From IMG/VR virus record IMGVR_UViG_2061766007_000208: DNA of 20,000 nucleotides; one strand, written 5' to 3'. The notes under the pieces are model-generated. The model saw nothing but the letters and a program-made list of their open reading frames with translations, searched no databases and was not told where the DNA came from. Below are positions 3,761 through 19,730 of this stretch, piece after piece (positions within the stretch are counted from its first letter, which is position 1; each line of letters begins with the position of its first letter). The stretch is from an uncultured virus (IMG/VR IMGVR_UViG_2061766007_000208) (taxonomy: Duplodnaviria; Heunggongvirae; Uroviricota; Caudoviricetes). The position numbers and the translations under genes are program-made.

Positions 3761-5492
3761 TAAAAATCTGCTTTATGTATTTTCCCTCATATTCATGGCC
3801 TTCCAGCCGGACGCTGTTACTGCAAACGCCAAGCATCTCCCGGACAAGAGCGCTCACAATGAAGAGTGCGCTGCTGTCCATACTGGATACCGGGTCATCA
3901 ATGACAACAATTTTGTCTTTTCCGGCATCCTTCTCAGAGGTGCTACCACGGACAATATGGTAGAAATACAAGAAAGCAATGAAGTTCCGTTCACCCTCAC
4001 TCAGGTTTTCGGCAACAGCTCCGTCCTCTCGGATAACCTCATACACACCTTTGACGCCTGATTTCTCACGAAGATAAAAGCCCTCAAAGCCTGAATCTTT
4101 CAGATGGGCATTAATACTGTCCACGGTCATCTTGGTGTTGACTACCTTGGAATTCAGATCAGTGAGCTCCGCAGACAGGTCCTTATATTTCTGCTGAAGC
4201 TCCCGGACTCTTTTGTTCAAGGCTTCGACAGCATCTTCAATTTCTTTTTTGCTTTTTCGGTATGCCGCAACCTCATCATTCAGGATGAAGGCGATTTCCT
4301 CCCACACCTTGCGATAGCAATCCAATTGCTTATCGTGTTTGGTGCTCACAATATCATTATTTATTTGAATCTGCTGATTAATCGATTCGACCATAGCATC
4401 CAGTTCTTCAATCAGCATATCAGTATCTTTCAGTTCTACCTTTTTTGCCGGAGAAGTTATTTTTGACTCGATCAGCTGCAGGTTAGTGGTAACCCTTGCT
4501 TCCAGCTGGTCCAGTTTCTTTTCATAGTCCTTGGTGTCAACCTTCGGGAAGACATCGTTCAGATTTGCCCTATACCAATTGATCAGGCTCTGCATCTTAT
4601 CTGTATAGGCCGTCTGGAAGGACCTCAGATCATCAATATCTTGCTGATATTCTTCGTCAAAGCACTCCGCGATATTCTTTTCAAAAGACTCTGGCAGCGT
4701 TTGCTGACAGAATGGGCATTTACCATCGGCGTGTTTAACATAGGCAAAGTGGCCGGTTTTTACCCAATCTGTAGCCTGCAGAGCCTTCATGAATCTGACA
4801 AAGTCTGTATCCCGGCTACTCGTGATGGATTTTCCCAGAAGCGGCAGACCGCTTAGATCAAAAAAACCGATCAAGTCCTTAGATGCTTTGAACAGGCTGT
4901 AGCTTCTGGCATTCGGGTCATAGGCAATATCGTACTGTTCTTCGATCTCCTCGATAGTGTGGTGAACAGCTTCATGGCGGCCTGACAGGACTTCTTCAGA
5001 AAACTGCTGCTTTTTCTTTTTTCCATTCTGCGTTTTTTCAAAGCGTTTTCTAACTGTCTCGGTATAATCCCAGCATGTTGTTTGGAATGTGGCCAGCAGT
5101 GGGTCCAGCTCCGCCTTCTTTTTATCCCTCTCACCTGCAGTATTTTTACCTTCAGTTATGGTGTCGTCTCTCTCTGCAGTTTTCTCATCAATTTGTCTTC
5201 TGATTTCTACGTTCTCTTCGCTCAGCGTAAAAACACCCTGAAGGTCTCCGTACGTTTCAAAATTGCGGTTTATGAAATCCTGATTGTAAATAAGAATGGA
5301 ATAGCCATCCGGATTCACGCCAGCCTGCCAGCGAAGAGCAGCAGGGTCCATAAAGGCCTTGGCAACAGTGGACTTGCCAGCACCATTTTTACCAAACAGG
5401 AAATTGATGTAGGTGGGTTGAAACTTCTCGCTGTGGAAAGTAGCCGCATCGAGAGTGATTTCTTCAATTATGCCATGCATTTTCTCGGTCAT
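3761..5492 (-). CDS. RloC-like / AAA_13 Rad50-type ABC ATPase with zinc hook; C-terminus lost in gap
   Basis: Walker A FGKNGAGKST, zinc hook CPFCQQ in a long coiled coil, signature LSEGE, Walker B/D-loop IVVIDDPVSSMD. GAAGGAGG RBS before ATG 5492 (MTEKMHG). Confidence 0.85.
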
Positions 5493-5526
5493 GCGTCTGC
5501 CTCCTTCCAGCATAGTTTTAACTGTG

Positions 5527-5736
5527 TCATTCGGAGATTCTTCCTTGTCTGACCCATTCATCGACCTCTGATATCTTGAATTTATAACGCTTCCCGGCGC
5601 GATACACCGGAAGCTTTCCGTTTTTTATCCACGTCCGCACAGTATCCGCGCTAACGCTGAGGTGCTCAGCTATGTCCTCAAGGTTAACCCATTTTTCTGC
5701 TGCTTCCTGCATTGCATTTTCTATTTCTTGGTTCAT
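5527..5736 (-). CDS. Excisionase-like helix-turn-helix DNA-binding protein (HTH_17)
   Basis: KWVNLEDIAEHLSVSADTVRTWIKNGKLPVYRAGKRYKFKISEVDEWV; GGAGG RBS. Confidence 0.85.
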   Translation of the reverse strand: MNQEIENAMQEAAEKWVNLEDIAEHLSVSADTVRTWIKNGKLPVYRAGKRYKFKISEVDEWVRQGRISE

Positions 5737-5762
5737 CTCTTACCTCCAAAGTTCCAACATGG

Positions 5763-6407
5763 TTAACGCTGCATATTGAATACAGGCACCGGCAGATTCG
5801 CTTCGTAAAGCTCCTGAATCAAATCCACTCGTTTTATCGCCCAATGAGTTCTGTTCAGTTCATTGAAACGATTATTACCAACAAGTCCAAGTTCTTCCAG
5901 CATCTCATTTAACCGTTGTTGCACAATATCACTCTTGTAGCCGCAGAAGTATATTTTCACGTCGTTGTCATATATCTTCACATCAGACACAAAACCATAG
6001 ATTACGCGCTGGTCGTCATCCGCCCTGCCATAAGGCCGATTCTCTGCAAGGAACAAAGACGGCAGTGTTTTGATTTCTTCTATTATTTCTGGCGTGAGCA
6101 CCTCGAAGCGTTTCTTAGTTTCATCCGTCATGCATTGGTTAAGCACCCGCTCACGCGGCACCTTAAAATATGGCTTGTCAAACTCCTCAATCCCGATGAC
6201 AAACAGATTATAGTATTCCCGGTTCACTCTCAAAGGCACATAGAAGGTCCCGTTGAGCGGAGGCATCATCGGCTGCGCTTGTACATTGATGTTGACAGTC
6301 CCATAGTTCGGTATCAGGACATTATCATTACCAGCCTGCACATACCGGTCTTGACCGGGAGCGCTTGGGACCGAGGGCTGCACTGTTTGAAGTTTGTTAT
6401 CCTCCAT
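5763..6407 (-). CDS. Hypothetical 214-aa protein with an N-terminal amyloid-like motif and a globular domain (YNLFV...LPSLFLAE...ELNRTHWAIKRVDL)
   Basis: Intact ORF with AGGAGG RBS, in operon spacing with its neighbours. Residues ~22-41 read YVQAGNDNVLIPNYGTVNIN. Confidence 0.8.
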   Translation of the reverse strand: MEDNKLQTVQPSVPSAPGQDRYVQAGNDNVLIPNYGTVNINVQAQPMMPPLNGTFYVPLRVNREYYNLFVIGIEEFDKPYFKVPRERVLNQCMTDETKKRFEVLTPEIIEEIKTLPSLFLAENRPYGRADDDQRVIYGFVSDVKIYDNDVKIYFCGYKSDIVQQRLNEMLEELGLVGNNRFNELNRTHWAIKRVDLIQELYEANLPVPVFNMQR

Positions 6408-6418
6408 TCAAAGCCCTC

Positions 6419-7300
6419 CTATCGCTTGTTAATGTTTATGGTCCCGTAGTTCGGAATCACCATATTGCCATCTCCAGTTTGCTGAATGAAGATGGGATTG
6501 TTATTAACCACGGATGTTGTGCTCTGCTGTGCGGGACCTTCAGACTGGTATGCTTGGCCTTGATCCTCCGGGACAACTTCTATGATTACATCATCATCTG
6601 TATCATCCTGCTCTGCTGATTCAGGCACGTTAACGTGGAGACCATCAAGAATTCCTTCGCCCATGTGTGCCGTATAATCACGCGGTCCTCCTCCGGTGGA
6701 AGGGCACCACTCGTCATAGGTAATCTGGCCCACCTTGTTATTTTTCCTATTTACAACTGCATAGTGCCAAACGCCGAGCAGAAATGCCGGTAGGTACACT
6801 TCTTTCAGACCGCCAAGTGCGGTCTTTTTTATTTTCTGGCCCTCGGCACCGATATAGAAGTCCTCGGACGCACCAATAGTCTCGTCTTGCTGTATCAAAT
6901 CGATGAGTGCCTTGACCAGCAAGGTTGCTTTTCCCACAGCTTCACCTAAATCAAGGTAGTTACAGACGAACGCTGTCATCTCTTTTAACGCGGACTTGTA
7001 GTCCCTCTTGACTCTATCATCAAAAGCGCGAATCTCCTGTGTTTCACCAAATGGGAGATAAGTACCCGTGGAGGTCTTGCAAGTCTTATAGTCATTTGCT
7101 TTCGTTTTCAGAAGATTACGGTCTATTTCCTGATAGTCCGGATTGATCACCTTGATCAGCCCCATCAGCACTTCCGGATCAGTGAGCCCGTCGCGATCAC
7201 CTTTATAGTGTTCTCTTGCTTTCATGCGCTGCCGAAGGTCCTGAAGCACCAGCGTGAAAAAGGTCCCTCCGCACAGACGCGGATAGTCATGTATTGTCAC
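6419..7300 (-). CDS. Hypothetical 293-aa protein: globular N-terminal domain, acidic linker, C-terminal amyloid-like motif
   Basis: GTG start at 7300 behind a GGAGG RBS. Begins TIHDYPRLCGGTFFTLVL, has linker ESAEQDDTDDDVIIEVVPEDQ, ends IQQTGDGNMVIPNYGTININKR*. Confidence 0.8.
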   Translation of the reverse strand: MTIHDYPRLCGGTFFTLVLQDLRQRMKAREHYKGDRDGLTDPEVLMGLIKVINPDYQEIDRNLLKTKANDYKTCKTSTGTYLPFGETQEIRAFDDRVKRDYKSALKEMTAFVCNYLDLGEAVGKATLLVKALIDLIQQDETIGASEDFYIGAEGQKIKKTALGGLKEVYLPAFLLGVWHYAVVNRKNNKVGQITYDEWCPSTGGGPRDYTAHMGEGILDGLHVNVPESAEQDDTDDDVIIEVVPEDQGQAYQSEGPAQQSTTSVVNNNPIFIQQTGDGNMVIPNYGTININKR

Positions 7301-7387
7301 AGATTGTCCTCCGATTGGCTTGCGTTTGCATTCAAACAGGCACGGTTGTAAGAAGCCGTCAACTCCTAACAAACCCCACTAAACCAT

Positions 7388-7416
7388 ATTATACCGCACG
7401 AACCCCTTTTTTTCAA
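7388..7416 (-). promoter_or_regulatory. Sigma-A type promoter for cassette B
   Basis: On the minus strand: TTGAAA (7416-7411), 17-nt spacer, TATAAT (7393-7388). Confidence 0.7.
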
Positions 7417-7516
7417 TCTGTAGAGGTGAACTTGTAGTAGCCGTCTACAACTTTTTTCCCGCTCCGACCTTAAAAACCTTATGAACTATGGCAGCCGACT
7501 TATCGAACGATTGGAT

Positions 7517-7546
7517 AGCTCTTGCGAGAAATCGCAGGAGCTTTTT
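7517..7546 (+). terminator. Intrinsic terminator-like hairpin
   Basis: AGCTCTTGCGA-GAAA-TCGCAGGAGCT followed by TTTT. Confidence 0.55.
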
Positions 7547-7591
7547 CCTTCCTGTGATTTCCGCGGAACTTTTGCAAATCANNNNNNNNNN

Positions 7592-8528
7592 CATCCGTTT
7601 GTGTTGTCATTACAAGGTCTTCAGATTCAGATAAGAAATCAAATGTCAGCTGCCCCGGATCAATCTTTGATTTCTTCATGGAGGATTTCCCTCCGAAAGT
7701 ACTCCATGCGGTGCTTTTATATAGCTTGAATCCTACGATACTGCTTGTGCAGTGGAGCAAATTATAGACAACAGTATTCTTGACGTTAAAAAACGGATAT
7801 GAAGCTATATAATAGCGCTTGTGGTTTTCACCGTTAAGTACCGTAATAATATCTTTTATTCTTTGCTCGAAAGCATCTCGATCACTTCCAAAATCGATCA
7901 AATCCTCGATCTTGGCAAGATACGTTGACTCATATTTAGATATTGTCTCTGGCCGTCTTGCCTGTGAGACCGCTCGGATGGAATCAGACACCATATGGTT
8001 TAAGATAATCTCTCCCCAATTTCGAATAAACGGCAATAAAGCAACCCAGTCTATTGTTGCCTGATATGGATCATAAACCAACAGGTAGTGAATCTTTGCC
8101 TGAGAAGAGAGTCTGCTTCCAATGGCTTTTAGGAGCTCGTTTCCGTCACCGACAGATAGATTCAGATGAAAATTGCGCGTCTCTATCGGCATATGCTTCT
8201 GCAGCTCATTTATTTTCTCTTGTGAAAGGTCATTAAAATACAGCCACGCCTGCTGATTTTGGTAATTTTGCTCACGCATAACATCAGAAAGAATCCTCGC
8301 CACTCTAATAGGAGTACCCTCTACCAGTTCTCCTGTTTCTTCGTTGACATACATTCCGCTATTGCACATGCAGTCGATGAAAACGATGCCGTTGCAATTA
8401 CCAGTATTACGGCCATATTCCAAGAGCTTGTGCGCCCATGCCCGCACATAGGCTTCAATAAGCTCGAATTTTTTAATAGTGTGTGGGCTCGCTTTGCTTA
8501 TAACTTCATTGTTGTTACTGCTTGCCAT
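7592..8528 (-). CDS. tcmP: Three-Cys-motif partner protein (TcmP-like, methyltransferase-like fold); C-terminus continues at 3571-3750
   Basis: HTIKKFELIEAYVRAW, IVFIDCMCNSGMY, GTPIRV, YFNDL, GDGNELL and LLVYDPYQ match the TcmP pattern, and it is linked to a radical SAM gene. Confidence 0.75.
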
Positions 8529-8540
8529 CAAATCACCTCA

Positions 8541-8762
8541 TCACTCTGAAACTTCGCCTTCTTCAGGAATCAGTTCCATGATATCGCCAATATCACATCC
8601 GAGCGTCTTACAAATCTTCATCAAAACCTCCATGCTTACAGTCTCACCTTTGGAGAGTTTAGTCACGGATGCCCAGCTAATGCCTGCTTTTGCCTGCAGG
8701 TCTTTTTTCTTCATATCCTTGTCTATTAAAATCTTCCATAGCTTCTTATAACTGACTTCCAT
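8541..8762 (-). CDS. Xre/Cro-C1 family HTH regulator (HTH_26 type)
   Basis: MEVSYKKLWKILIDKDMKKKDLQAKAGISWASVTKLSKGETVSMEVLMKICKTLGCDIGDIME; GGAGG RBS. Confidence 0.9.
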   Translation of the reverse strand: MEVSYKKLWKILIDKDMKKKDLQAKAGISWASVTKLSKGETVSMEVLMKICKTLGCDIGDIMELIPEEGEVSE

Positions 8763-8812
8763 CTCATCACCTCCATTTGACGGATGTGGCACTATTACGA
8801 CAGCATGAAGGA

Positions 8813-8910
8813 ATTATACCACATCGCCGCCAAAATCACAAGGTAAATCTTCACGAACACTCGAATATTCTTCTATTATCATTGAAATTTCTCTGGTTAC
8901 GTGATATAAT
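8813..8910. promoter_or_regulatory. Divergent sigma-A promoters between xre and the immA-like gene
   Basis: Plus strand: TTGAAA (8882-8887)-17 nt-TATAAT (8905-8910). Minus strand: TTGTGA (8841-8836)-17 nt-TATAAT (8818-8813). Both have a TGn extended -10. Confidence 0.7.
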
Positions 8911-8959
8911 TCATTCCATCCCACCTGATTGACATAGCCAGCGAAAGGAGGAACGCTCC

Positions 8960-10824
8960 GTGGGCAAATATCGAGATGAAATAGAGCGTTTTATTTATGA
9001 GATCTGCTACCAGCCCATTTGGGCAGCTATATCAGAATATGTATCCCAGCACCTTTCGCTTCTGGATCTGACCTACTCCCGTGTTAAGTATCCCGACTCT
9101 GCTTACGTGGAGGATATGCTGCTGGAATTCACAAAAAACATTCGAATTGACGAAGACACCTTATCGTTTGATGCTGTCGTCAGCTGCACGATGAATCTGA
9201 CGGGAGAAAACTATCGTGGGACTGCTTCCTGTGATTTATCTCAATGGTTTCTTGTTTCCTGCGAGGCAGTGATTGAAGATAAGCTCAAATCACTGAATAT
9301 CACAAATGTCTGGCAATACACTCCCGGCCTGCGAACACAAAGCGATGGACAGGCGGTTTCTAAAAACATCGTACCCATCCTGTATAAAAAAGATTTAGAA
9401 GCGGAGGCTTCTTCCTTTTTGGAGAAATACTGTCCAGAAGCTCTTGAGACGCCTATGCCGGTTCCCATTGCTGAGATTGCTAAGACAATGGGCCTTGAAG
9501 TTGTCGAAGGTCACCGCATTACTGATGACTTCAGCATATTCGGAGAAATCTACTTCTCTCCGGGAAGGGCCGAAGTATATGACCTTTTCCAGTGCAGCTT
9601 GCAGGAGATCGTTGTACGTCGCGGTACCATTCTTATTGACGCATACACGTATTGGGAACGTAACCTCGGCTGTGTAAAAAACACGATTGCACACGAGGTC
9701 TATCACTGGCATAAGCATCGCATGTATGCAGCGATCAGGTACATTCTTTATGGCAAAGACTATGTTGCCTGCCGGTGCCCATCGAACATGGTTTACCCCG
9801 ATAAAGAAGCAGAATGGACTGACGAGCAGCGTATGGAATGGCAGGCCAACAGCATAGCTCCCCGCATTCTGATGCCTCTTCGTCCATTCCAGATGAAGGT
9901 TGACGAGCTGTATAAAAGGTATGACTATCAGAACACTCCTCTGAAGATCGCCGTACTTACATGCATCGCTGATGACCTTGCCAAGTTCTACGGAGTCTCG
10001 CGCCAGTCTGCATTGATCCGGATGATGGAAACCGGGTATAAAGAGGCCGCAAGCGTATACAATTATGATTCTGGCTCGCCGTTCCATAACTACGTCAGTC
10101 AGAGTGATGCTTTCTACGCGTATTGCACTGACAGCGAGTTCCGTAAGCTGGTCGATTCAGGCCTGTTCCGCTATGTCAACGGCTACTTCGTTGTGGACGA
10201 TGANNNNNNNNNNNNNNNNNNNNNNNNNNNNNNNNNNNNNNNNNNNNNNNNNNNNNNNNNNNNNNNNNNNNNNNNNNNNNNNNGCAGACCGTACGCCCCT
10301 CTCCGACAGAAAAACGGTTCCCGGATGTTATCTTGCATCGCGCCAACGCCGACCGGAAAGTTTCCAAATATGATGCAAGCCAGAACTCCGACGTCATTAA
10401 GATGTCTGAGGAACTCCGTCATAAGCGCGAGGAATTTGAGCGCCAGAATGCAGCGAGAAAAATCACCGGATTAAACAAAACCTGTTGGCAGCTTATCTTT
10501 GAGATCCTTGAGTCTCGTGGTATGAGCAAATCTCATTTCTGTAGTTTGACTGATCTTGGAGAGGAAGTATTTCGTAAAGCGGAAAAGAATATCGACACTA
10601 AACCAAGCATCCGAACTATTGTTTCTATCGGTAGAGGCCTTGATCTGGATATAGGAACAGTTGAAACACTCATGCGTCTCGCAGGCCACGCCTTTGACGA
10701 GTCTGATGAGCATCAGGCTCTTAAGTTTTGTATAACCGGCTTTCCCGGTGGAACAATTGCTGACGCTAATGAGTTTCTTGAATCATATAATTTTGCCCCA
10801 TTGGGTAGTCAACAACGTAGATAA
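8960..10824 (+). CDS. ImmA/IrrE-family metallopeptidase with a probable C-terminal Xre-like HTH; one gene interrupted by the gap at 10204-10283
   Basis: TIAHEVYHW (HExxH), MEWQANSIAPRILMP, LAKFYGVSRQSALIRM. After the gap another frame gives ILESRGMSKSHFCSLTDLGEEVFRKAE...PSIRTIVSIGRGLDL. AAGGAGG RBS before GTG. Confidence 0.82.
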
Positions 10825-10834
10825 CCACACCATT

Positions 10835-10868
10835 AAGCCGTGCATCCAACCGGATGTGCGGCTTTTTT
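10835..10868 (+). terminator. Intrinsic terminator after the immA-like gene
   Basis: AAGCCGTGCATCC-AACC-GGATGTGCGGCTT followed by a T run. Confidence 0.75.
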
Positions 10869-10876
10869 AAATTTTT

Positions 10877-11040
10877 CCGACTCGACGAGTCGGGTCTAAG
10901 ACAGTTTCTTTTTATCAGAATCCTTCTATATCAACGCTGGTCATGCTGATCAGCGTCCTTTTTTATCCTTTTTCCTTTGAAAAACGCTAAATAATCGCGA
11001 CTTGCCGAGTTTTTACGAAAATAAATCAAGCGCGTATATT
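10877..11040 (+). promoter_or_regulatory. Operator-like palindromes and promoter for the sigma/replication operon
   Basis: Perfect palindrome CCGACTCG-A-CGAGTCGG at 10877-10893. Degenerate copy CGACTTGCCGAGT at 10998-11010 abuts TTTACG (11012-11017)-17 nt-TATATT (11035-11040). Confidence 0.55.
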
Positions 11041-11117
11041 TGCAATAGCACATGGGAGCTGACTGCGCAGGGTGTTTCCCGGTTCCATGTGACTTAACTG
11101 AAAATCAAATCTGCACA

Positions 11118-11238
11118 GACCACCGGAAGCGATGTGCAGCCGAAATGGAGTAATCCATTGGGCTGCTATCGCTACCGCGTGGTCTTAAGGTGCATGTCTG
11201 GGGAGCTCTCCATTTCGGCAAAAGCCGAAGGAGGGCTT
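11118..11238 (+). promoter_or_regulatory. Structured 5' leader with an RBS-sequestering hairpin and an alternative pairing
   Basis: Long stem 11118-11184. Hairpin 11203-11238 covers GAAGGAGG. GCCGAAATGGAG (11139-11150) is the exact reverse complement of CTCCATTTCGGC (11208-11219). Confidence 0.6.
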
Positions 11239-11243
11239 TCTTT

Positions 11244-11756
11244 ATGACAAACAAAGTAAACCAGAGTAAACGTATCTATCTCAAGGCCACCCGTCAGTGG
11301 GTGGAGGTCTCGGAGGAATACTACCGCGACCATGCCCGTCACTACGACGCGTTCCGGAAGCGCCAGCAGTCTCATGGACAGTGTGTTTGTCCGAAGAACA
11401 AGTTCTGGCTCTGTGATGGCGATTGCTTCAATTGCGAATTTCATCGTGCCGGTGACCAGCTTTCTCTCGACTTCACCACTGAAAACGAAGAAGGCGATGT
11501 TTGTTCTCCGCTGGATGCCCTCGCGGATCTGTCTCCGTCTGTTGAAGAGGTTGTCTGCGACAAGGCCGAGCTGGACCAGCTCTTTGACCGCCTGAACAAC
11601 CTGATGCCGGAAGCGGTGCAGATCGGTAAGCTCCGTCAGCAGGGTCTATCCGATGAGGCGATTGCTAAGATCATCGGCATCAAGCGCACCACGTTCCTGT
11701 CTCGCCTGAAGAAAGCCAAGGAGCAGCTTGCCGCTGACTATCCTGATCTCTTCTAA
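11244..11756 (+). CDS. Sigma-70 region-4 domain protein with a Cys-rich N-terminal motif (allele 1)
   Basis: CVCPKNKFWLCDGDCFNCEF, LSLD, C-terminal HTH GLSDEAIAKIIGIKRTTFLSRLKKAK; GAAGGAGG RBS. Confidence 0.8.
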   Translation: MTNKVNQSKRIYLKATRQWVEVSEEYYRDHARHYDAFRKRQQSHGQCVCPKNKFWLCDGDCFNCEFHRAGDQLSLDFTTENEEGDVCSPLDALADLSPSVEEVVCDKAELDQLFDRLNNLMPEAVQIGKLRQQGLSDEAIAKIIGIKRTTFLSRLKKAKEQLAADYPDLF

Positions 11757-11766
11757 TAATGTATGG

Positions 11767-11799
11767 CTCCGGCTGCCGACATGGTGGCCGGAGTTTTTT
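11767..11799 (+). terminator. Intrinsic terminator after the sigma-like gene; second copy at 14410-14441, partial copy at ~13833-13849
   Basis: CTCCGGCTGCC-GACAT-GGTGGCCGGAG followed by TTTTTT. Confidence 0.7.
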
Positions 11800-11817
11800 C
11801 AAAAAAGTTCGTCCTTC

Positions 11818-11849
11818 CTTCGTCAAACCGCCTGCCTCACCTCCAGTGG
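11818..11849 (+). promoter_or_regulatory. Bipartite motif CTTCGTCAAA-N9-TCACCTCCAGTGG, candidate promoter for the element-encoded sigma factor
   Basis: Recurs at 14461-14492, 14539-14570 and 19207-19238 with the same spacing but three different spacer sequences, always just upstream of an RBS and gene. Confidence 0.6.
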
Positions 11850-11897
11850 GAAGTGTAAGGAGCACAAAACGACAAGCTCCGGACGGGAGGTAATGGT

Positions 11898-12058
11898 ATG
11901 CAAAGCATCCACAACAAGAGCCCTGCGGATGAGGAAGCCATCGAAGTGCTGATCGCTATCAGCGACGTATCCGCAAGGCTGGCAAGGAAACTCGCGGTCC
12001 TTGCCGCACAACGACAATCCGAGGAAGGAGGAAAACGACATGAGCAAAATGAACGACA
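11898..12058 (+). CDS. Small hypothetical protein (MQSIHNKSPADEE...); alleles at 14620-14769 and 14785-14934
   Basis: GGGAGG RBS. Protein conserved across three copies. End lies in a gap. Confidence 0.6.
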
Positions 12059-12348
12059 NNNNNNNNNNNNNNNNNNNNNNNNNNNNNNNNNNNNNCTGGC
12101 TGACCACAGCCTTCAGCAGTGATCCAGAGACGGAAGCGGCACCCGTACCTACACCCGCTGCCAAGGAGCCGGAACCGGTACTCGCGTTTGAAGAGGTCCG
12201 CGCCATTCTGGCAGACAAATCCCGCGAGGGCTTCACCGCCCAGATCCGGGAACTGCTGCAGAAGTACGGTGCCAGCAAGCTCTCCGAGGTGGACCCGGCA
12301 CACTACAAATCACTGATCAAGGATGTGGAGGGCCTGAGCAATGGGTAA
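12040..12348 (+). CDS. Conserved phage hypothetical protein (MSKMND...VRAILADKSREGFTAQIRELLQKYGASKLSEVD); allele at 14927-15255
   Basis: GAAGGAGG RBS. Typical small gene preceding DUF2800 in these replication modules. Overlaps the next start codon. Confidence 0.7.
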   Translation: MSKMNDXXXXXXXXXXXXXWLTTAFSSDPETEAAPVPTPAAKEPEPVLAFEEVRAILADKSREGFTAQIRELLQKYGASKLSEVDPAHYKSLIKDVEGLSNG

Positions 12349-12826
12349 TCACGCACTTCTCTCCGCATCCTCATCCCACCGGTGGCTGAACTGCCCACCC
12401 TCCGCACGGCTCTGCGAGAGCTACGACGACAAGGGCAGCAACTTCGCCGCCGAGGGCAGTGATGCCCACNNNNNNNNNNNNNNNNNNNNNNNNNNNNNNN
12501 NNNNNNNNNNNNNNNNNNNNNNNNNNNNNNNNNNNNNNNNNNNNNNNATACGTGCAGTCCGGCTTTGGCACCGGCGACTGCGTCCTGATCGCTGATGGGA
12601 CCTTGCACATCGTGGATTTCAAATATGGTCGCGGTGTGCTGGTGGAGGCCGAGNNNNNNNNNNCAAGAAGACCTGCAGCGATCCGGTGGTCCTGATCGAG
12701 CAGCGCCTTGACTACTCCAAGTACGTGCAGTCTGGCTTTGGGACCGGCGACTGCGTCCTGATCGCTGACGGCACCCTGCACATCGTGGATTTCAAATATG
12801 GTCGCGGTGTGCTGGTGGAGGCCGAG
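12341..12826 (+). CDS. DUF2800 / Cas4-like PD-(D/E)XK nuclease, fragments of several alleles; also 15248-15429
   Basis: HALLSASSSHRWLNCPPSARL, AAEGSDAH, IEQRLDYS, GFGTGDCVLIADGTLHIVDFKYGRG. Confidence 0.8.
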
Positions 12827-13158
12827 NNNNNNNNNNCCAAGTCTCCCAGATTTGACGGGTTTTGGGGCCTTGACAGGTATCCCAACTTCATCCGGTAGGA
12901 TATACGCAGAAGACGAGAGAGCGCGTTATCTGGGCAAAGACCGACTATACCTTTTAATTATATCACTCAGATATGTGTNNNNNNNNNNNNNNNNNNNNNN
13001 NNNNNNNNNNNNNNNNNNNNNNNNNNNNNNNNNNNNNNNNNNNNNNNNNNNNNNNNNNNNNNNNNNNNNCCAATGTGATCGGTCCGAGTGCACAGAAAGG
13101 ATCTGTTCGCCACGGCGGTGACGCTGACAACTGAATAGAAAACCAGCACGCGAACAGC

Positions 13159-13294
13159 TGGACGCAATCTGAAGCGGAGACTTAGTTCTCCTGCTACGGG
13201 TGGGATTTTTGCGTCCATTTTGCCGCTGGCACCCATACGGGCTCTCCGCTTCTCCACAACCTCAGCGGTCGTGGGGCCAGAGGAGGGCCCGTAT
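13159..13294 (+). promoter_or_regulatory. Structured 5' leader of sigma allele 2, same architecture as 11118-11238
   Basis: Outer stem TGGACGCAA/TTGCGTCCA. ATACGGGCTCTCC (13235-13247) pairs with GGAGGGCCCGTAT (13282-13294) over the RBS. GAAGCGGAGA (13171-13180) is complementary to TCTCCGCTTC (13243-13252). Confidence 0.6.
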
Positions 13295-13295
13295 T

Positions 13296-13820
13296 ATGAA
13301 GAACTTTGACAACCAGAGTAAATCCAAGCGCATCTACGACAAGCAGACTAAGACATGGTTCGAGGTCTCACCCGAAGAGTACAAGCAGTTCGATACATGG
13401 CGCACCAATCTCCGGAAGCGTGAGCAGTATCATCACCGCTGCATGTGCCCCAGAAATAAGTGGTGGCTCTGCGACGGCATGTGCGACGACTGTGAATTCC
13501 ATGCAGCCGGTGACATCCTTTCTCTTGATGCGACCACCACCAACGACGAGGGTGACGAGGTCCGTTTGCTGGACAGATTTGCCAGCCCTGAGTCCAACCT
13601 GAACGATATCATCCTTGATCAGATTCTGATGCAGCAGCTCCTGAAACGTCTGGCCGAGCTCATGCCGGAGGCGGCTGAAATCGGGCAGCTCCGCCTTCAG
13701 GGACTGAAGGATGACGATATTGCAGACATCATCGGTGTGAAGAGAACCACCTTCCGCTCCCGGATCGAAAAGGCCAGAGCCAAGCTCCGGGAAGAATACG
13801 GCGAAGACTTCTATTTCTAA
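13296..13820 (+). CDS. Sigma-70 region-4 domain protein (allele 2)
   Basis: MKNFDNQSKSKRIYD, CMCPRNKWWLCDGMCDDCEF, HTH GLKDDDIADIIGVKRTTFRSRIEKA; AGGAGG RBS. Confidence 0.8.
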   Translation: MKNFDNQSKSKRIYDKQTKTWFEVSPEEYKQFDTWRTNLRKREQYHHRCMCPRNKWWLCDGMCDDCEFHAAGDILSLDATTTNDEGDEVRLLDRFASPESNLNDIILDQILMQQLLKRLAELMPEAAEIGQLRLQGLKDDDIADIIGVKRTTFRSRIEKARAKLREEYGEDFYF

Positions 13821-13874
13821 TATGTACCCCTGCTCCGGCTGCCGTCATGNNNNNNNNNNCAGGAGGAAATCAAA

Positions 13875-14387
13875 ATGCAAAACAAGGCAAATCAAAGCAA
13901 GCGCATCTATGACAAACAGACCAAGACGTGGTTTGAGGTAACCCCGGAGCAGTACAAAGAGTTTGATACTTGGCGGACCAACCTTCGGAAGCGGGAGCAG
14001 TATCATCACCGCTGCATGTGCCCCAGAAGTAAATGGTGGCTGTGTGACGGAATGTGCGATGACTGCGAGTACCACGCTCCCGGCGACATTCTCTCGCTGG
14101 ATATGCCGACCAGCAGCGACGACGGCGATGAGGTCACCCTGCTCGACATGCTGGAGGACCCAGCACCTTCCATTGAAGAAGTCATCTGCGACAAAGCCGA
14201 GCTCGATCAGCTCTATGAGCGTCTTAACCAGCTGATGCCGGAGGCCGTTGAGATCGGCAGGCTCCGGCAAAAGGGACTGACCGACGAGGCCATTGCCAAG
14301 ATCGTCGGCATCAAGCGCACTACCTTCCGATCCCGGTTGGAGAAGGCTAAGGCCCAGCTCGCTGCTGAGTATCCGGACCGCTTCTAA
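13875..14387 (+). CDS. Sigma-70 region-4 domain protein (allele 3)
   Basis: CMCPRSKWWLCDGMCDDCEY, HTH GLTDEAIAKIVGIKRTTFRSRLEKAK; AGGAGG RBS. Confidence 0.8.
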   Translation: MQNKANQSKRIYDKQTKTWFEVTPEQYKEFDTWRTNLRKREQYHHRCMCPRSKWWLCDGMCDDCEYHAPGDILSLDMPTSSDDGDEVTLLDMLEDPAPSIEEVICDKAELDQLYERLNQLMPEAVEIGRLRQKGLTDEAIAKIVGIKRTTFRSRLEKAKAQLAAEYPDRF

Positions 14388-15784
14388 CCTTTTTTAATAG
14401 ATACCCCTGCTCCGGCTGCCGCAATGGTGGCCGGAGTTTTTCTAAAAAAGTTCATCCTTCCTTCGTCAATCCGCCTGCCTCACCTCCAGTGGGAAGTGTA
14501 AGGAGCACAAAACGACAAGCNNNNNNNNNNTCGTTTTCCTTCGTCAATCGGCACCCCTCACCTCCAGTGGGAAGTGTAAGGAGCACAGAACGACACGCTC
14601 CGGATTGGAGGTAACCGACATGTACGGGATTCACAACAAGAGCCCCGCGGATGAGGAAGTCATCGACGTGCTGATCGCCATCAGCCATGTATCCGCAAGG
14701 CTGGCAAGGAAGCTCACGGTCCTTGCCGCGCAACGACAATCCGAGGAAGGAGGAAAACGACATGAGCAANNNNNNNNNNACGGTATGCAAAGCATCCACA
14801 ACAAGAGCCCTGCGGATGAGGAAGTCATCGACGTGCTGATCGCCATCAGTCATGTATCCGCAAGGCTGGCAAGGAAACTCGCGATCCTTGCCGCGCAACG
14901 ACAATCCGAGGAAGGAGGAAAACGACATGAGCAANNNNNNNNNNTGGCACAGGCCATCGAAGAACTCCGCAACGCTGCTGCCGCTATTAACGACATCGCC
15001 AACTGGCTGACCGAGGCCTTCAGCAGTGATCCGGAGACTGAGGCGGCACCCGCGCCTGCACCCGCTGCCAAGGAACCGGAACCGGTTCTCGCCTTTGAGG
15101 ACGTCCGCGCCATTCTGGCTGACAAGTCCCGCGAGGGCTTCACCGCCCAGATTCGGGAGCTGCTTCAGAAGTATGGTGCCAGCAAGCTCTCCGAGGTGGA
15201 CGCCAAGCACTACAAGGCGCTGATCGCGGATGTGGAGGGCCTGAGCAATGGGTAATCATGCACTCCTCTCTGCATCCTCAAGCCACCGGTGGCTGAACTG
15301 CCCACCCTCCGCACGTCTCTGCGAGGGCTACGACGACAAGGGTAGCAACTTCGCCGCTGAGGGCAGTGACGCCCACAGTCTCTGTGAGTACAAGCTCCGG
15401 AAGGCGCTGGGCATGGAGGCTAAGGACCCNNNNNNNNNNNNNNNNNNNNNNNNNNNNNNNNNNNNNNNNNNNNNNNNNNNNNNNNNNNNNNNNNNNNNNN
15501 NNNNNNNNNNNNNNNNNNNNNNNNNNNNNNNNNNNNNNNNNNNNNNNNNNNNNNNNNNNNNNNNNNNNNNNNNNNNNNNNNNNNNNNNNNNNNNNNNNNN
15601 NNNNNNNNNNNNNNNNNNNNNNNNNNNNNNNNNNNNNNNNNNNNNNNNNNNNNNNNNNNNNNNNNNNNNNNNNNNNNCTTTCCATTGCCGGTACCTCCTT
15701 AATCCAAGAAGTCGTCCGCGTCGTCGGTGGCGAAGTCGGAAGCAGCGCTGGCNNNNNNNNNNCGCGTTCATGGCGCGTACCTCC

Positions 15785-16284
15785 TCAGTCCAAGAAGTCG
15801 TCCGCGTCGTCGGTGGCGAAGTCGGAAGCAGCGCTGGCTTTACCGCCGAGAGGCTCGCCGTCACGAATCTTCTGCAGGTTGTTCAGGCCGCAAGCGATGC
15901 CCTTGTTGCCGTTCGAGTTGAAGGCGTAGAAGCTGATGCTGGCGCGGCCATAGACACCGGAGTAGACCTCGGAGCGGGACAGGATCGGGTTGCAGTCGGC
16001 ATCCACGATACCCGGCGCGGTGGCGGAGTTGGCATTGATGAAGTAGGCGTTGGCGTAGGCCGGATCATCCGGACGCTCGGTGTCGCCATCTCGGAGCGGC
16101 GTCTTAATCGCGGTCAGAGGCGGGACGGAGCGACCGTTACCCTTGAGCTTGGCCTGACCCTCCTCGTAGGCGGCCTGAATGGCGGCCTTGATCTTCTCGA
16201 CCGTGACCTTATCGGACTTGGGGACGATCAGGGAGACAGAGAACTTCGGGGTGCCGCCGTTGATGGACTTGGCCTCCCAGACGT
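15785..16284 (-). CDS. DUF2815 family phage ssDNA-binding protein (gp2.5-like); gap-bounded and probably inverted. Second allele tail at 15698-15752
   Basis: VWEAKSINGGTPKFSVSLIVPKSD, PLRDGD, YFINANS, VYSGVYGRASISFYAFNSNGNKGIACGLNNLQK, acidic tail DFATDDADDFLD. Confidence 0.85.
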
Positions 16285-16299
16285 NNNNNNNNNNCGACA

Positions 16300-16497
16300 A
16301 TGGAAAACACAGTTATGATCTCGTCCCTTCTCTGCAACATCCTGATCGGCAGCTTCAGCATCGTCGTCTTGACGTGGGCTGCGGTGGGAATCCAGACGCT
16401 CTTCAATGACCGCAAGGAGGAAAAGCGTAAGGAAGCCTCCGAGGCCCGTGATCTGGAATATCACGAGAAGCGCATGAAGGAGCTCGACAGAAAGTAA
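16300..16497 (+). CDS. Small single-pass membrane hypothetical protein
   Basis: 65 aa with a hydrophobic N-half and a charged C-half, directly upstream of the polymerase fragments. Confidence 0.6.
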   Translation: MENTVMISSLLCNILIGSFSIVVLTWAAVGIQTLFNDRKEEKRKEASEARDLEYHEKRMKELDRK

Positions 16498-16621
16498 TCA
16501 CAAGCCAGCGGGTGGTGGGAGCAATCCTGCCACCCTGTTGGCNNNNNNNNNNNNNNNNNNNNNNNNNNNNNNNNNNNNNNNNNNNNNNNNNNNNNNNNNN
16601 NNNNNNNNNNNNNNNNNNNNN

Positions 16622-19201
16622 TCGAGGCTCCGGATTTCGACGTTTTGCTGTTTGGCTACTCCGTGGACGGCGGACCGGTGCAGGTGGTGGACCTTGCTTC
16701 CGGCGAGGAGCTGCCTGCGGAGATCGTGGCCGCGCTGACGGATGACACCGTGATCAAGTGGGCCTTCAANNNNNNNNNNNNNNNNNNNNNNNNNNNNNNN
16801 NNNNNNNNNNNNNNNNNNNNNNNNNNNNNNNNNNNNNNNNNNNNNNNNNNNNNNNNNNNNNNNNNNNNNNNNNNNNNNNNNNNGATGGGCCTGCCGCTCT
16901 CCTTGGAAGGCGTCGGTGCCGTGCTGGGGCTGGACAAGCAGAAGCTCTCCGAGGGCAAGGACCTCATCAAATACTTCTGCCAGCCCTGTGCGCCGACGAA
17001 GACCAACGGTGGCCGGACCCGGAACCTGCCGATGCACGCGCCGGACAAGTGGACCGCCTTCAAACGGTATAACTGCCGAGATGTGGAGGTCGAACAGTCC
17101 ATTCAAAACCGGCTGGCCAAGTTCCCGGTCCCGGACAGCATCTGGGAGGAATACCACCTCGATCAGGAGATCAACGACAGAGGCGTGGCACTGGATATGG
17201 ATCTGGTGCAGCAGGCCATCGACATGGACACCCGCTCCCGGAAGGAGCTCACCGATGCCATGAAAGACCTGACCTCTTTGGAGAACCCCAACAGCGTGAT
17301 CCAAATGAAGCAGTGGCTCGCAGACCACGGTCTGGAGATGGACTCCCTCGGCAAAAAGGAAGTGGCTGAGGTCCTGAAGACCGCGCCGCCTAAGCTGCAG
17401 AAGGTGCTCCTGCTCCGNNNNNNNNNNTGATGCCATGAAGGATCTGACCTCTCTGGAGAATCCCAATAGCGTAATCCAGATGAAGCAGTGGCTGGCGGAC
17501 CACGGTCTGGAGATGGATTCCCTCGGCAAAAAGGAAGTGGCCGAGGTCCTGAAGACCGCGCCGCCTAAGCTGCAGAAGGTGCTCCTGCTCCGNNNNNNNN
17601 NNCTGCAGCGCGTAGTCCTTAATGTCGGAAGCCCAATCCATCAGGTTGTCCAGCTTGCCCAGAATCTCCTCGACCTCTTCGTCGGTCAGGAGAGGCNNNN
17701 NNNNNNGCTGTCCAGCTTGCCCAGAATCTCCTCGACCTCTTCGTCGGTCAGGAGAGGCGGCTGCCGGAATTCATATCTGGCGAGCTCCATGTTGGCTCTA
17801 GCGCGTTCCCGGCAGTCGGCCTTGGCCTTGCAGAACTGGCACCATTCGCCACAGTGGTATTCACCGTCACCGGCGTAGGCGAGCTCTGCGGTCGGGACCA
17901 GCACCGTCTCTGCCCAATCCAGCAACTCCTGCCGGGTAAGGGTAAAGGTGCTGACGTTGGCGCGGCGCGGCTGGTAGATCGTCATGCTGACGGTGTCGAT
18001 GTCGTACAGGCAGTCGAAGATCTCCAGAGCGCCGAGCGCGTAGAGCTTCATCTGCGGGTTGTCCTCGGCCTCCACCAGCACACCGCGACCNNNNNNNNNN
18101 CTGCGCCGATGGCCGTGCCCGTGGGATGTTTCAGTTCTTCGGAGCCAACAGGACCGGTCGCTGGGCTGGCCGCATCATCCAAATGCAAAACCTGCCCCAA
18201 AACCACCTCCCGGATCTGGGACAGGCCCGTGGTCTGGTCCGCGCCGGTGACTTTGACGCCGTGGAGATGCTCTATGAGGATGTGCCGGACACGCTCTCGC
18301 AACTGATTCGGACAGCCTTCGTGCCGAAGGAAGGCTGCAAGTTTATCGTGGCGGACTTCTCGGCCATCGAGGCCAGAGTGCTGGCGTGGTTTGCCGGAGA
18401 GGTCTGGCGTCAGGAGGTCTTCGCAAACGGCGGTGACATCTACTGCGCCTCAGCCAGTCAGATGTTCAAGGTCCCGGTGGAGAAGCATGGCGTCAACGGC
18501 CACCTGCGGCAAAAAGGCAAGATCGCAGAATTGGCGCTCGGCTACGGCGGCTCGGTCGGTGCCCTCAAGGCAATGGGAGCAATCGAGATGGGCCTTGCTG
18601 AGGAGGAGCTCCAGCCGCTGGTCAGCATGTGGCGCTCCTCCAACCCGAACATCACNNNNNNNNNNTGGTGACATCTACTGCGCCTCGGCCAGTCAGATGT
18701 TCAAGGTCCCGGTGGANNNNNNNNNNGAAGTTCTGGTGGGACGTGGACCGCGCCGCTATGAACGCCGTCCAGAAGCATATCGACGGCGATGTGGGCAGTA
18801 TCCACTTCAGCTATAAAAGCGGGATGCTGTTCATCACCCTGCCCTCCGGAAGGAAGCTGGCCTATGTGAAACCGAAGATTGGCACTAACCAATTCGGCAG
18901 TGACTGTATCACCTACGAGGGCACCGGCAGCACAAAGAAGTGGGAGCGGTTGGAAAGCTACGGTCCGAAGTTTGTCGAGAACATCGTGCAGGCCACTTCC
19001 CGCGACATTTTGTGCTACGCCATGCAGACCCTGTCGCACTGCTTTATTACCATGCATATCCATGACGAGCTGGTGATCGAGGCTGACCCGCGCATGAGCT
19101 TGCAGGCAGTCTGTGACCAGATGGGCCGGACGCCGCCTTGGGCTGAAGGGCTCCAGCTCCGCGCCGATGGCTATGAGACTACTTTTTACAGAAAAGATTG
19201 A
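16622..19201 (+). CDS. Phage-type family A DNA polymerase in fragments 16622-16769, 16884-17417, 18101-18655, 18727-19201, with duplicated allele pieces at 17428-17592 and 18666-18716
   Basis: Exonuclease region LLFGYSVD, KWAF and YNCRDVEVE; RTGRWAGRIIQMQNLP; motif A IVADFSAIEARVLAW; motif B RQKGKIAELALGYG; ENIVQATSRD; motif C HIHDE. Confidence 0.9.
17603..18090 (-). CDS. DUF2800 nuclease, central/C-terminal fragments (inverted contig pieces)
   Basis: GRGVLVEAEDNPQMKLYALGAL continues the 12826 fragment. Contains IYQPR and the Cas4-like Cys cluster CGEWCQFCKAKADC. Confidence 0.8.
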
Positions 19202-19206
19202 ACCGT

Positions 19207-19238
19207 CTTCGTCAAAAGCAGGCGTTCACCTCCAGTGG
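19207..19238 (+). promoter_or_regulatory. Bipartite motif copy downstream of the DNA polymerase
   Basis: CTTCGTCAAA-AGCAGGCGT-TCACCTCCAGTGG, at a locus non-allelic to 11818. Confidence 0.6.
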
Positions 19239-19292
19239 AAATTAGAGGTGGACGCCTTTCCCATATGTCCGCCCAGAAAGGAGGCTCTTTTC

Positions 19293-19730
19293 ATGAGTGT
19301 GGATATCCGCAACAGCGAAGGATACGTCGATCCCACCGCTCACGAGGCCCTGTCTGCTATCGAACGTGATGAACGGCAGGCACTTCGCGCTTTCAGGCCC
19401 ATCGTCTACATCTGCTCTCCCTATGCCGGAGATGTGGAACGAAACGTGGCCGCTGCCCGAAGGTACTCGCGTTTTGCTGTGGAGACCGGCTATATCCCAA
19501 TCGCGCCGCACCTGCTGTTTCCACAGTTCCTGAATGACGGCGATCCGGCTGAGCGCGAGCTGGGGCTCTTCTTCGGAAATGCCCTGATGAGCAAGTGCTC
19601 AGAGGTCTGGGTCTTTGGCAGCCGCATCTCAGACGGCATGGCAGCAGAAATCAAACGCGCTCGCTGGAAGAACTACCGGCTGCGCTATTTCACTGACGAT
19701 TTCAAGGAGGTACACGATGTACGAAGTTAG
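19293..19730 (+). CDS. DUF4406-like / nucleoside deoxyribosyltransferase-fold phage protein
   Basis: RNSEGYVDPTA, PIVYICSPYAGD, PIAPHLLFPQF, CSEVWVFGSRISDGMAAEI; AAGGAGG RBS. Confidence 0.75.
   Translation: MSVDIRNSEGYVDPTAHEALSAIERDERQALRAFRPIVYICSPYAGDVERNVAAARRYSRFAVETGYIPIAPHLLFPQFLNDGDPAERELGLFFGNALMSKCSEVWVFGSRISDGMAAEIKRARWKNYRLRYFTDDFKEVHDVRS

What the first reader, a model, noticed from the sequence alone, without database searches (positions are those of the whole stretch)
11118..13294. Switchable RNA leader upstream of the sigma-like gene, with architecture kept in two sequence-divergent alleles
Seen, allele 1: hairpin 11203-11238 buries the RBS. Its 5' arm CTCCATTTCGGC can instead pair perfectly with GCCGAAATGGAG (11139-11150), which is itself locked near the tip of a long stem (11118-11184). 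Allele 2 has a different sequence but the same logic: ATACGGGCTCTCC/GGAGGGCCCGTAT buries the RBS, and GAAGCGGAGA (13171-13180), inside the TGGACGCAA/TTGCGTCCA stem, is complementary to TCTCCGCTTC (13243-13252). Inference: a cis-regulatory translational switch keeps the element's activator off until a protein, an RNA or transcription kinetics opens the upstream stem.
Basis: partly seen in the sequence, partly recalled or inferred. Interest (0 to 1): 0.72.

Follow-up and report, generated by a model that had tools for sequence, protein, structure and literature searches.

The report
Self-pairing RNA lock on phage sigma
In temperate phages of gut and rumen bacteria, the messenger RNA for the phage's sigma-like activator starts with a folded leader that hides the ribosome-binding site, carries its own unlocking strand, and displays a self-complementary loop, which suggests that two copies of the RNA pair up to decide whether the phage switches on.

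Summary
Both leaders have a hairpin that buries the Shine-Dalgarno sequence and an upstream strand (A) complementary to the hairpin's 5' arm (C). Across homologous leaders A:C keeps at least 8 of 9 pairs in 121 of 121 (one further class of 18 lacks this register), with compensatory changes in four columns, two of which are bulged in the hairpin of these two alleles. The upstream part aligns weakly but end to end with the orphan Rfam motif DUF2800, whose model stops before the hairpin.

Its loop holds a six-base palindrome in 90 of 104 leaders (background 6-15%), in seven different spellings, with position-matched compensatory switches. A linker resembling a host rRNA-spacer motif follows. Unrelated leader types precede 94-98% identical sigma-like proteins, and no constant repressor gene is adjacent.

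Best reading: a default-OFF translational lock on the master activator of Heliusvirales-like prophages. It can open only while the RNA is being made, probably with help from loop-loop dimerisation of two leaders. Architecture is well supported; dimerisation and its direction are inferred. No expression data were obtained.

The parts
11012..11040 (+). Candidate sigma-A promoter of allele 1 (TTTACG, 17 nt, TATATT); start would fall near 11047, the 5' end of P1
   Evidence: 3 sites found, 1.9 expected, so weak alone; -10-like hexamers at the same place in class-5 relatives seen by eye
11047..11094 (+). Allele 1 hairpin P1 (outer stem, 3' bulge Z, inner stem, apical loop)
   Evidence: aligns to the first stem of Rfam DUF2800
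11064..11069 (+). Self-complementary loop hexamer TGCGCA, candidate kissing site
   Evidence: 16 of 18 class-5 leaders, the other 2 are the G-U-compatible TGTGCA. In this allele the single-sequence fold pairs part of it locally
11078..11084 (+). Bulge Z, complementary to Y (11122-11129): candidate P1-P2 pseudoknot
   Evidence: 5 bp here, 5-7 bp in most relatives; swap control only modest
11094..11104 (+). Conserved unpaired linker (boxA-like, degenerate copy in this allele)
11118..11184 (+). Allele 1 long stem P2 holding Y (11122-11129), A (11139-11150) and its local partner B (11154-11159)
11139..11150 (+). Strand A, the anti-anti-SD of allele 1
11203..11238 (+). Allele 1 SD-burying hairpin: anti-SD arm C 11208-11219, SD AGGAGG 11229-11234
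11244..11756 (+). Sigma-like protein, 170 aa: invariant Cys/His cluster, region-3/4-like C-terminal part; probable master activator (inferred)
   Evidence: best fold matches are sigma factors, best E 0.007, none at E<=0.001
11766..11799 (+). Terminator-like hairpin closing the sigma gene
   Evidence: 95% identical to the copy at 14409-14437 that the scan lists; this copy itself was not listed by the scan
11819..11849 (+). Promoter-like motif TTCGTCAA-N11-CACCTCCAGTGG in front of the replication genes; candidate target of the sigma-like protein (also 14462, 14540, 19208)
   Evidence: 4 exact matches, 0 in 200 shuffles; none within 600 nt upstream of sigma in 110 loci
13070..13121 (+). Allele 2 hairpin P1 (5' end cut by the N run 12979-13069); inner stem 13081-13085/13099-13103
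   Evidence: one pair changes on both sides in 4 of 14 rows
13088..13093 (+). Self-complementary loop hexamer GTGCAC
   Evidence: 19 of 20 in its subgroup, the other is the palindrome GTCGAC
13104..13110 (+). Bulge Z (TGTTCGC), complementary to Y 13150-13156
   Evidence: (98% of cells paired, no two-sided change within the subgroup)
13125..13137 (+). Linker TGACAACTGAATA, one base from a motif in a host 16S-23S spacer
13143..13229 (+). Allele 2 stem P2: outer 13143-13147/13225-13229, inner 13159-13167/13209-13217, A 13171-13180, B 13186-13194
13235..13294 (+). Allele 2 SD-burying hairpin: C 13243-13252, SD AGGAGG 13281-13286
   Evidence: base stem has 2 pairs with two-sided changes
13296..13820 (+). 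Second sigma-like gene, 174 aa, 52% identical to the first
   Evidence: (Sigma70_r4_2, E 1.7e-5, just below cut-off)
13875..14387 (+). Third sigma-like copy; only 15 nt of its leader are visible behind an N run

Best explanation
The leader is a default-OFF translational lock on the master activator of a Heliusvirales-like temperate phage. Supported by comparative evidence: hairpin C:D buries the SD, and strand A in the tip of stem P2 is selected to pair with C, which would free the SD. Computed: the finished RNA is stably OFF, so A can capture C only while the RNA is being made, before the SD strand D emerges, or with extra binding energy; P2's lower stems would stay intact (a pseudoknot, or pairing between two molecules). 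Inferred: the palindromic loop of P1 lets two leaders kiss, and this dimer helps the capture, by presenting one molecule's A to the other's nascent C or by reshaping the P1-P2 domain. A lone leaky transcript then stays silent, while a burst of transcripts unlocks itself: a cooperative threshold on induction. Different palindromes give non-cross-reacting specificity groups. Step odds: switch architecture about 0.85; loop mediates RNA-RNA dimers about 0.7; dimer activates rather than represses about 0.6 of that.
For: A:C has at least 8 of 9 pairs in 121 of 121 non-class-1 leaders (110 perfect). Over 20 distinct types, columns 2, 3, 4 and 5 each show two Watson-Crick pair types, and C columns 4-5 are unpaired in the SD hairpin in classes 0 and 5. 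Mean cognate duplex -16.9 versus cross-class -10.1 kcal/mol. A perfect 6-nt palindrome sits at the aligned loop position in 90 of 104 leaders not selected on it, with 7 spellings, within-group switches GTGCAC to GTCGAC, GTGCAC to GCATGC and TGGCCA to CGGCCG, and 3 further G-U-compatible variants; background 6-15%. Unrelated leader classes precede 94-98% identical proteins and upstream genes vary, with no constant repressor among 43 ORFs scanned, so no protein partner is seen to change with the palindrome. No second exact copy of A or C in 5 of 5 class-5 phage records. With the 5' strand of P2 removed, A:C forms with probability 0.99-1.0 in nascent RNA. Precedents: IsrK activates its own mRNA in trans (PMC4825925); HIV-1 DIS dimerises through a GUGCAC loop (PMC7357161).
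Against: No experiment and no usable RNA-seq (contigs only). Among 14 close relatives of allele 2, A:C shows no two-sided change; the covariation comes from comparing classes. Co-folding a short leader with nascent C did not produce A:C in trans (the program cannot draw tip-only contacts). 17 of 18 class-1 leaders have the palindrome but lack the standard A:C register, showing only a shifted, weaker helix found after the fact. Two A:C-type leaders (L024, L164) show no P1 of this kind, 5 leaders keep only a 4-nt core and one (L068) is broken. In allele 1 the loop is partly paired in the single-sequence fold. No conserved U-tract to make a short leader RNA (36 of 139). Twelve class-5 leaders were found with a pattern that contains A.
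Confidence: 0.4

Rival explanations
1. Same switch, opposite role of the dimer. A lone nascent transcript goes ON by intramolecular A:C capture. Leader RNA already in the cell (from the resident prophage or co-infecting genomes) kisses the nascent leader and blocks capture. This would be RNA-based immunity or multiplicity sensing, with palindromes as immunity groups.
For: Same palindrome and leader-swapping data; no constant repressor next to the gene. Tip opening costs 4-10 kcal/mol while A:C yields 17-20, so capture before D emerges looks favourable in a monomer if geometry allows. RNA immunity is known from P4 CI RNA (passage in PMC4825925).
Against: A is an activating strand, so a partner RNA bringing A near C should unlock. 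No conserved terminator for an abundant short RNA. GTGCAC is shared by two leader classes, which weakens it as an immunity code.
Confidence: 0.22
2. Monomeric kinetic switch set by the transcription complex. The conserved linker recruits Nus-type factors that tether the leader at the RNA exit channel and decide whether A meets C before D appears. The palindrome has a side role.
For: The linker is unpaired and conserved across classes. TGAAAACTGAATA lies 138 nt behind both 16S genes of genome G005, and that genome's own prophage leader differs by one base. At least 10 of 13 bases match in 31 of 136 leaders versus 0.5% in shuffles. rRNA complexes nucleated on boxA act as RNA chaperones (PMC8632103, passages).
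Against: The phage linker lacks the CTTT that precedes the host motif. No exact match near the 16S genes of the other 2 of 3 genomes. It does not explain why self-complementarity is kept through seven spellings. It is compatible with the best explanation as a helper.
Confidence: 0.2
4. The repeats and the palindrome are DNA operator sites for a repressor, and the RNA folds are incidental.
For: A and D resemble each other. In class 3, C pairs equally well with D. The palindrome lies just behind the likely start site.
Against: G-U-compatible variants in A:C and in the loop. The palindrome is off-centre to its stem and the stem has a one-sided bulge. Stems covary. SD burial exceeds controls. No co-varying repressor.
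Confidence: 0.06

Closest known systems
Rfam RF02960, DUF2800 RNA motif (orphan cis-regulatory candidate; attribution to Weinberg et al. 2017 is recalled, as the name does not occur in the main text of PMC5737381 and the supplement could not be read)
   Same: Same position before the sigma-like gene and the DUF2800 operon. True members score 124-129 bits in homologous leaders. Both window alleles align over model positions 1-158, with the linker and A in register. The Rfam consensus itself has the palindrome UGAUCA in the P1 loop and the Z and Y segments unpaired.
   Different: The window alleles score 16 and 18.6 bits against a cut-off of 60.2. The Rfam model ends about 45 nt before the start codon and so omits the SD hairpin and the A:C alternative. 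Its nested structure shows neither the pseudoknot nor a dimer.
IsrK of Salmonella prophage Gifsy-1 (PMC4825925; abstract and passages seen)
   Same: A prophage leader whose mRNA is folded translationally OFF and is switched ON by pairing with RNA from the same locus; the controlled product pushes the prophage towards lytic gene expression.
   Different: IsrK is a terminated short isoform acting through long complementarity. No conserved intrinsic terminator here, no sequence relationship shown, and no palindromic loop in the IsrK passages seen.
HIV-1 dimerisation initiation site (PMC7357161; passages seen)
   Same: A six-base palindrome in an apical loop of a 5' leader (GUGCAC, identical to allele 2), linked to a conformational switch that involves the start-codon region.
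   Different: The viral dimer serves genome packaging. The review says the flanking purines are strictly conserved; here allele 2 has A on both sides but flanks vary between classes. No homology is implied.
P4 CI RNA and P1/P7 c4 RNA immunity systems (P4 from a passage in PMC4825925; c4 recalled)
   Same: RNA-only control of a prophage's early leader.
   Different: They repress, by premature termination or antisense pairing from a processed RNA. No C4-type Rfam hit in the window and no second copy of A or C in 5 class-5 records.
rRNA and lambda nut boxA antitermination elements (PMC8632103; passages seen)
   Same: The linker resembles a motif in the 16S-23S spacer of one host genome.
   Different: Only the 3' part matches; Nus binding not tested.

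Membership tests
Rfam DUF2800 (RF02960) | Covariance-model score at or above the gathering threshold of 60.2 bits | tested here: not met
   16 and 18.6 bits; nothing in the whole-window scan
Rfam DUF2800 (RF02960) | Two-stem layout with conserved linker and the AAACGGAG-type tip hairpin | tested here: met
   End-to-end alignments; class comparisons
Rfam DUF2800 (RF02960) | Lies upstream of the operon with the DUF2800 gene | tested here: met
   PF10926 at window 15248; true members precede the same sigma-like gene; 56 of 74 pattern loci had the gene downstream
Anti-anti-SD translational switch | SD-sequestering hairpin | tested here: met
   (prediction only)
Anti-anti-SD translational switch | Mutually exclusive alternative helix with covariation | tested here: met
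   standard register not met in 17 of 18 class-1 leaders
Anti-anti-SD translational switch | Regulated change in translation | not testable with these tools
   No reporter data; uninformative
DIS-type kissing homodimer | Six-base palindrome in an apical loop, kept by compensatory change | tested here: met
   90 of 104, seven spellings; loop position
DIS-type kissing homodimer | Conserved flanking purines | tested here: inconclusive
   A on both sides in allele 2's subgroup, purines in most of class 1, pyrimidines on one or both sides in classes 0b, 3 and 5
DIS-type kissing homodimer | Dimer formed in solution | not testable with these tools
   Co-folding favours an extended P1 dimer by 10.5 and 6.3 kcal/mol, which is expected for a hairpin with such a loop and is not a test
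IsrK-type self-activating RNA | Short terminated isoform from an intrinsic terminator in the leader | tested here: not met
   At least 6 T in 8 nt behind P2 in 36 of 139 leaders; 1 of 18 in class 5 and 3 of 52 in class 0
Leader-peptide attenuator | Conserved start codon and ORF behind the SD-like part of A | tested here: not met
   Start codon in 12 of 52 (class 0), 10 of 48 (class 3), 17 of 18 (class 5) but with different frames and fates
Ca. Heliusvirales | [quoted passage not shown] | tested here: met
   PF10926, PF10991, PF00476 in the window; same order in PV036449, classed as Ca. Heliusvirales
Ca. Heliusvirales | TerL in the heliusvirus clade (profile score above 700) and structural markers | not tested
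   Not in the window; a Pfam TerL is present in 5 of 5 related records including the nearest one, but the heliusvirus profile was not available
Sigma-70 family | Region 4 helix-turn-helix | tested here: inconclusive
   Pfam hits just below cut-off; fold matches to sigma factors, best E 0.007
Sigma-70 family | Region 2 domain | tested here: not met
   No region-2 Pfam hit; the N-terminus is a beta-hairpin, a helix and a Cys cluster

The most novel reading that the evidence does not exclude
A widespread temperate-phage lineage controls its master activator without a dedicated repressor, through an mRNA leader that must dimerise with a second copy of itself by a palindromic kissing loop to unlock its own ribosome-binding site. 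This would be an RNA-only counter of transcript or genome number, with exchangeable palindromes as specificity groups.
Probability: 0.35. Interest if true: 0.92.

Novelty: new variant of a known kind. Interest (0 to 1): 0.74.

Why it matters
It gives an orphan Rfam motif an expression platform and a testable mechanism, widens it to several leader classes that Rfam misses, and points to how a highly prevalent group of gut and rumen prophages decides to switch on. No sigma factor or repressor is mentioned in the main text of the paper defining the group (0 occurrences of either word). If the dimer step is real, it is a bacterial mRNA that senses its own concentration through a DIS-like loop. Six library searches showed no listing of such a case, but that library lacks most subscription journals and the supplement describing DUF2800 was not seen. 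Natural orthogonal palindrome variants would also be ready-made parts for cooperative riboregulators.

Tried and rejected
Whole-window Rfam scan: only a chance hit; the DUF2800 resemblance appears only in short-region scans.
Leader peptide: the TTG ORF of allele 1 that ends on the sigma start codon is not conserved.
Intrinsic terminator behind P2: not conserved.
Z:Y as an opener of P2: it would take only a few base pairs from the lower stem; the cross-class swap control is modest (cognate mean 5.9 bp, cross-class 3.7-5.2), so it is kept only as a candidate tertiary contact.
Separate trans RNA carrying A or C: none in 5 of 5 class-5 records. Extra 9-mer copies in 3 of 5 class-0 records: two lie about 1.15 kb downstream on the coding strand and were judged coding coincidences by position only; those in G561 were not examined.
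Sigma autoregulation through its candidate promoter: 0 of 110 loci have the motif upstream.
RNA-seq: four runs with 5-12% word share, contigs only, no information on ends or level.
Genome surveys were thin: RF02960 in 1 of 150 genomes, the sigma profile in 7 of 401; those loci were not analysed further.
The pattern was mostly chance (3 of 119 loci had the gene downstream).
The first pair count used a misregistered structure string and is void; one search replaces it. The palindrome part crashed and the anchors missed 21 leaders; one search replaces both.
In one search, most class-1 rows and L170 were misregistered, which lowers the cognate mean quoted.
L153 was dropped (clustered with class 5, but its anchors were not found).
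Fold search gave no match at E<=0.001.
Full report
Setting. The locus reads: variable cargo and an IrrE-like/Xre pair on the left, then leader, sigma-like gene, terminator-like hairpin, and a replication module with DUF2800 exonuclease, Enc34-type ssDNA-binding protein and DNA polymerase A. The best annotated relative, PV036449, is classed as Ca. Heliusvirales and has the same order. Five of five related virus records, including the one nearest to the window, carry a terminase. The paper defining the group describes these phages as mostly temperate and Firmicutes-infecting (PMC11283538, passages). The 170-aa protein has weak region-4 hits, an invariant Cys/His cluster and no region-2 hit; its model matches sigma factors best but only at E 0.007. 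A 31-nt motif occurs four times in the window, just behind the terminator copies and before a downstream gene, and never in 200 shuffles. I infer that it is the promoter read by this protein, which would make the gene the element's master activator.

Observation. I call the upstream strand A, its local partner B, the hairpin's 5' arm C and the SD strand D. A:C is 12 bp in allele 1 and 10 bp in allele 2; none of 100 shuffles reached these lengths, although by duplex energy allele 2 alone is not significant.

Comparative test. From 190 loci, 173 had enough upstream DNA, giving 112 unique leaders in 22 sequence clusters. The SD is predicted buried in 105 of 110 scorable leaders versus 73 of 189 neighbouring genes. 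Seven clusters (65 leaders after dropping L153) carry the A-type layout, and pattern scans added 74 unique leaders. In 121 of 121 leaders outside class 1, the 9-bp A:C core keeps at least 8 pairs, and 110 are perfect. Over 20 distinct types, column 2 is A-U or G-C (13/7), column 3 A-U or G-C (18/1), column 4 A-U or G-C (11/7) and column 5 C-G or U-A (14/4), with scattered G-U. Columns 4-5 of C are paired in the SD hairpin in only 0-21% of class-0 and class-5 leaders, so D does not explain them. Caveats: the register was chosen as the best among core-motif matches; 12 class-5 leaders were selected with a pattern containing A; in class 3, C pairs with D throughout; among 14 close relatives of allele 2, A:C is invariant apart from two G-U cells, while P1 and the SD hairpin base do covary; 17 of 18 class-1 leaders lack this register and show only a shifted helix found after the fact.

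Relation to Rfam. Class-3 leaders are true DUF2800 RNAs (124-129 bits). The two window alleles align to all 158 model positions at 16 and 18.6 bits, far below the cut-off of 60.2. The model ends before the SD hairpin. The finding is therefore a diverged relative of an orphan motif plus the expression platform that the model omits.

Upstream of P2 lies hairpin P1, starting near the likely start site of allele 1. Its loop holds TGCGCA (11064-11069) in allele 1 and GTGCAC (13088-13093) in allele 2. Among 104 leaders not selected on the loop, 90 have a perfect six-base palindrome at the aligned position, 3 a G-U-compatible one and 5 a four-base core. One is broken, one is shifted by the aligner (palindromic), two have gaps and two have no such P1. 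Seven spellings occur: GTGCAC, TGGCCA, TGCGCA, TGATCA, GCATGC, CGGCCG and GTCGAC. Three are switches inside one aligned group (two, two and four substitutions, all compensatory). Windows of similar length elsewhere in the leaders hold such a palindrome 6-15% of the time. The rows are related, so the switches, not the count, carry the weight. A 3' bulge of P1 is complementary to the 5' strand of P2 with class-specific sequences, but the swap control is modest. The unpaired linker between the stems resembles a 13-mer found 138 nt behind both 16S genes of genome G005, whose own prophage leader differs from it by one base. It lacks the preceding CTTT, and the exact pattern was not found near the 16S genes of two other genomes. 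Spacer boxA elements nucleate RNA-chaperoning complexes (PMC8632103, passages).

Modularity. Leaders of unrelated sequence precede sigma proteins that are 94-98% identical, for example allele-1-type L015 and allele-2-type L031 at 97%. Of 139 upstream ORFs, 43 were scanned: ABC-three-component, NACHT, GmrSD, methylase, recombinase and a few helix-turn-helix genes, with no constant repressor.

Mechanism. Nested folding puts OFF 28.7 and 19.4 kcal/mol below ON. In RNA ending just after C the gap is 15-17 and 3.5-5. A:C takes over only when the 5' strand of P2 is removed. Opening just the tip costs 4-10 kcal/mol and A:C yields 17-20, so capture of C by the tip of an intact P2 is favourable before D is made and unfavourable afterwards (my arithmetic; pseudoknot penalties ignored). 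The decision is therefore most likely co-transcriptional. The simplest use of a conserved self-complementary loop is leader-leader kissing, as in the HIV-1 DIS (PMC7357161, passages). Because A is an unlocking strand, I favour activation: two transcripts meet and A captures nascent C, so isolated leaky transcripts stay silent and a burst passes the threshold. IsrK of Gifsy-1 is the nearest working precedent for self-activation in trans (PMC4825925, abstract and passages), but no conserved terminator for a short isoform exists here. Repression by the dimer, a Nus-set kinetic switch and a protein opener remain open. Co-folding did not show A:C in trans, and no expression data were usable.

Novelty. 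Library searches for the motif name, its accession and the concept (listings only) showed no description of this switch or loop. A 2026 review of RNA assemblies does not contain the string 'DUF' (PMC12990946, passages). A preprint on these gut phages reports ready induction and does not contain the words repressor or leader (10.64898/2026.01.26.701711, passages). The supplement of PMC5737381, where I recall the motif being described, could not be read and may already note some of this. Two earlier AI notes describe RNA locks before sigma genes in other prophage families; they are leads only. Verdict: real and selected, a new variant of known RNA switches, with an untested but sharp possibility of dimer-gated control.

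Noticed in passing
window 1-20000: 28 N runs and duplicated modules (sigma gene three times, DUF2800 start twice, SNF2-like pieces twice): the window looks like alternative strain paths strung together, not one genome.
   Followed up: partly
window 11819, 14462, 14540, 19208; G558 4324 and 8824; G563 303 and 4869: Bipartite motif TTCGTCAA-N11-CACCTCCAGTGG, twice per record about 4.5 kb apart in 2 of 5 records; seen behind the sigma gene in 25 of 96 loci with a relaxed pattern. Candidate promoter of the sigma-like protein; covariation with its helix-turn-helix was not tested.
   Followed up: partly
L134, L183, L076, L007 and many others, about 25 nt directly 5' of P1; probably inside the N run 12979-13069 for allele 2: A small H-type-pseudoknot-like motif (short GC stem, loop UGAGC pairing with GCUCA behind an A-rich run) recurs with apparent compensatory changes in classes 0, 1 and 3; no Rfam hit in L183.
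   Followed up: partly
leader clusters 2, 4, 6-9 (for example L021, L040, L147, L128, L138): Other leader types bury the SD too and often have an upstream complement of the anti-SD arm at -135 to -200, but lack the palindromic P1; cluster 4 shows no such complement.
   Followed up: partly
L026, L128, L126, L159, about 65-100 nt before the sigma start: ATTATA(T/A)CAC-like segment that reads as an extended -10 on the opposite strand, inside the leader; seen by eye.
   Followed up: no
L032; L512: L032 joins the long P1-P2 of allele 2's subgroup to the SD hairpin of the sister subgroup and keeps A:C. L512 has an inverted duplication that makes P2 a perfect hairpin.
   Followed up: no
window 8541-10824: Divergent Xre-type gene and a probably single 620-650-aa IrrE-like gene cut by an N run; a same-strand ORF of similar length precedes L037, L052, L153 and L018.
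   Followed up: partly
window 1-8531 and upstream regions of related loci: The slot left of the leader is a defence hotspot: an AAA_13 ATPase in the window; ABC-three-component, NACHT, GmrSD and methylase genes in relatives.
   Followed up: no
window 11078-11084: Allele 1 has one more C in bulge Z than most class-5 relatives; one contig lacks it, so it may be a rare variant or an assembly slip.
   Followed up: no
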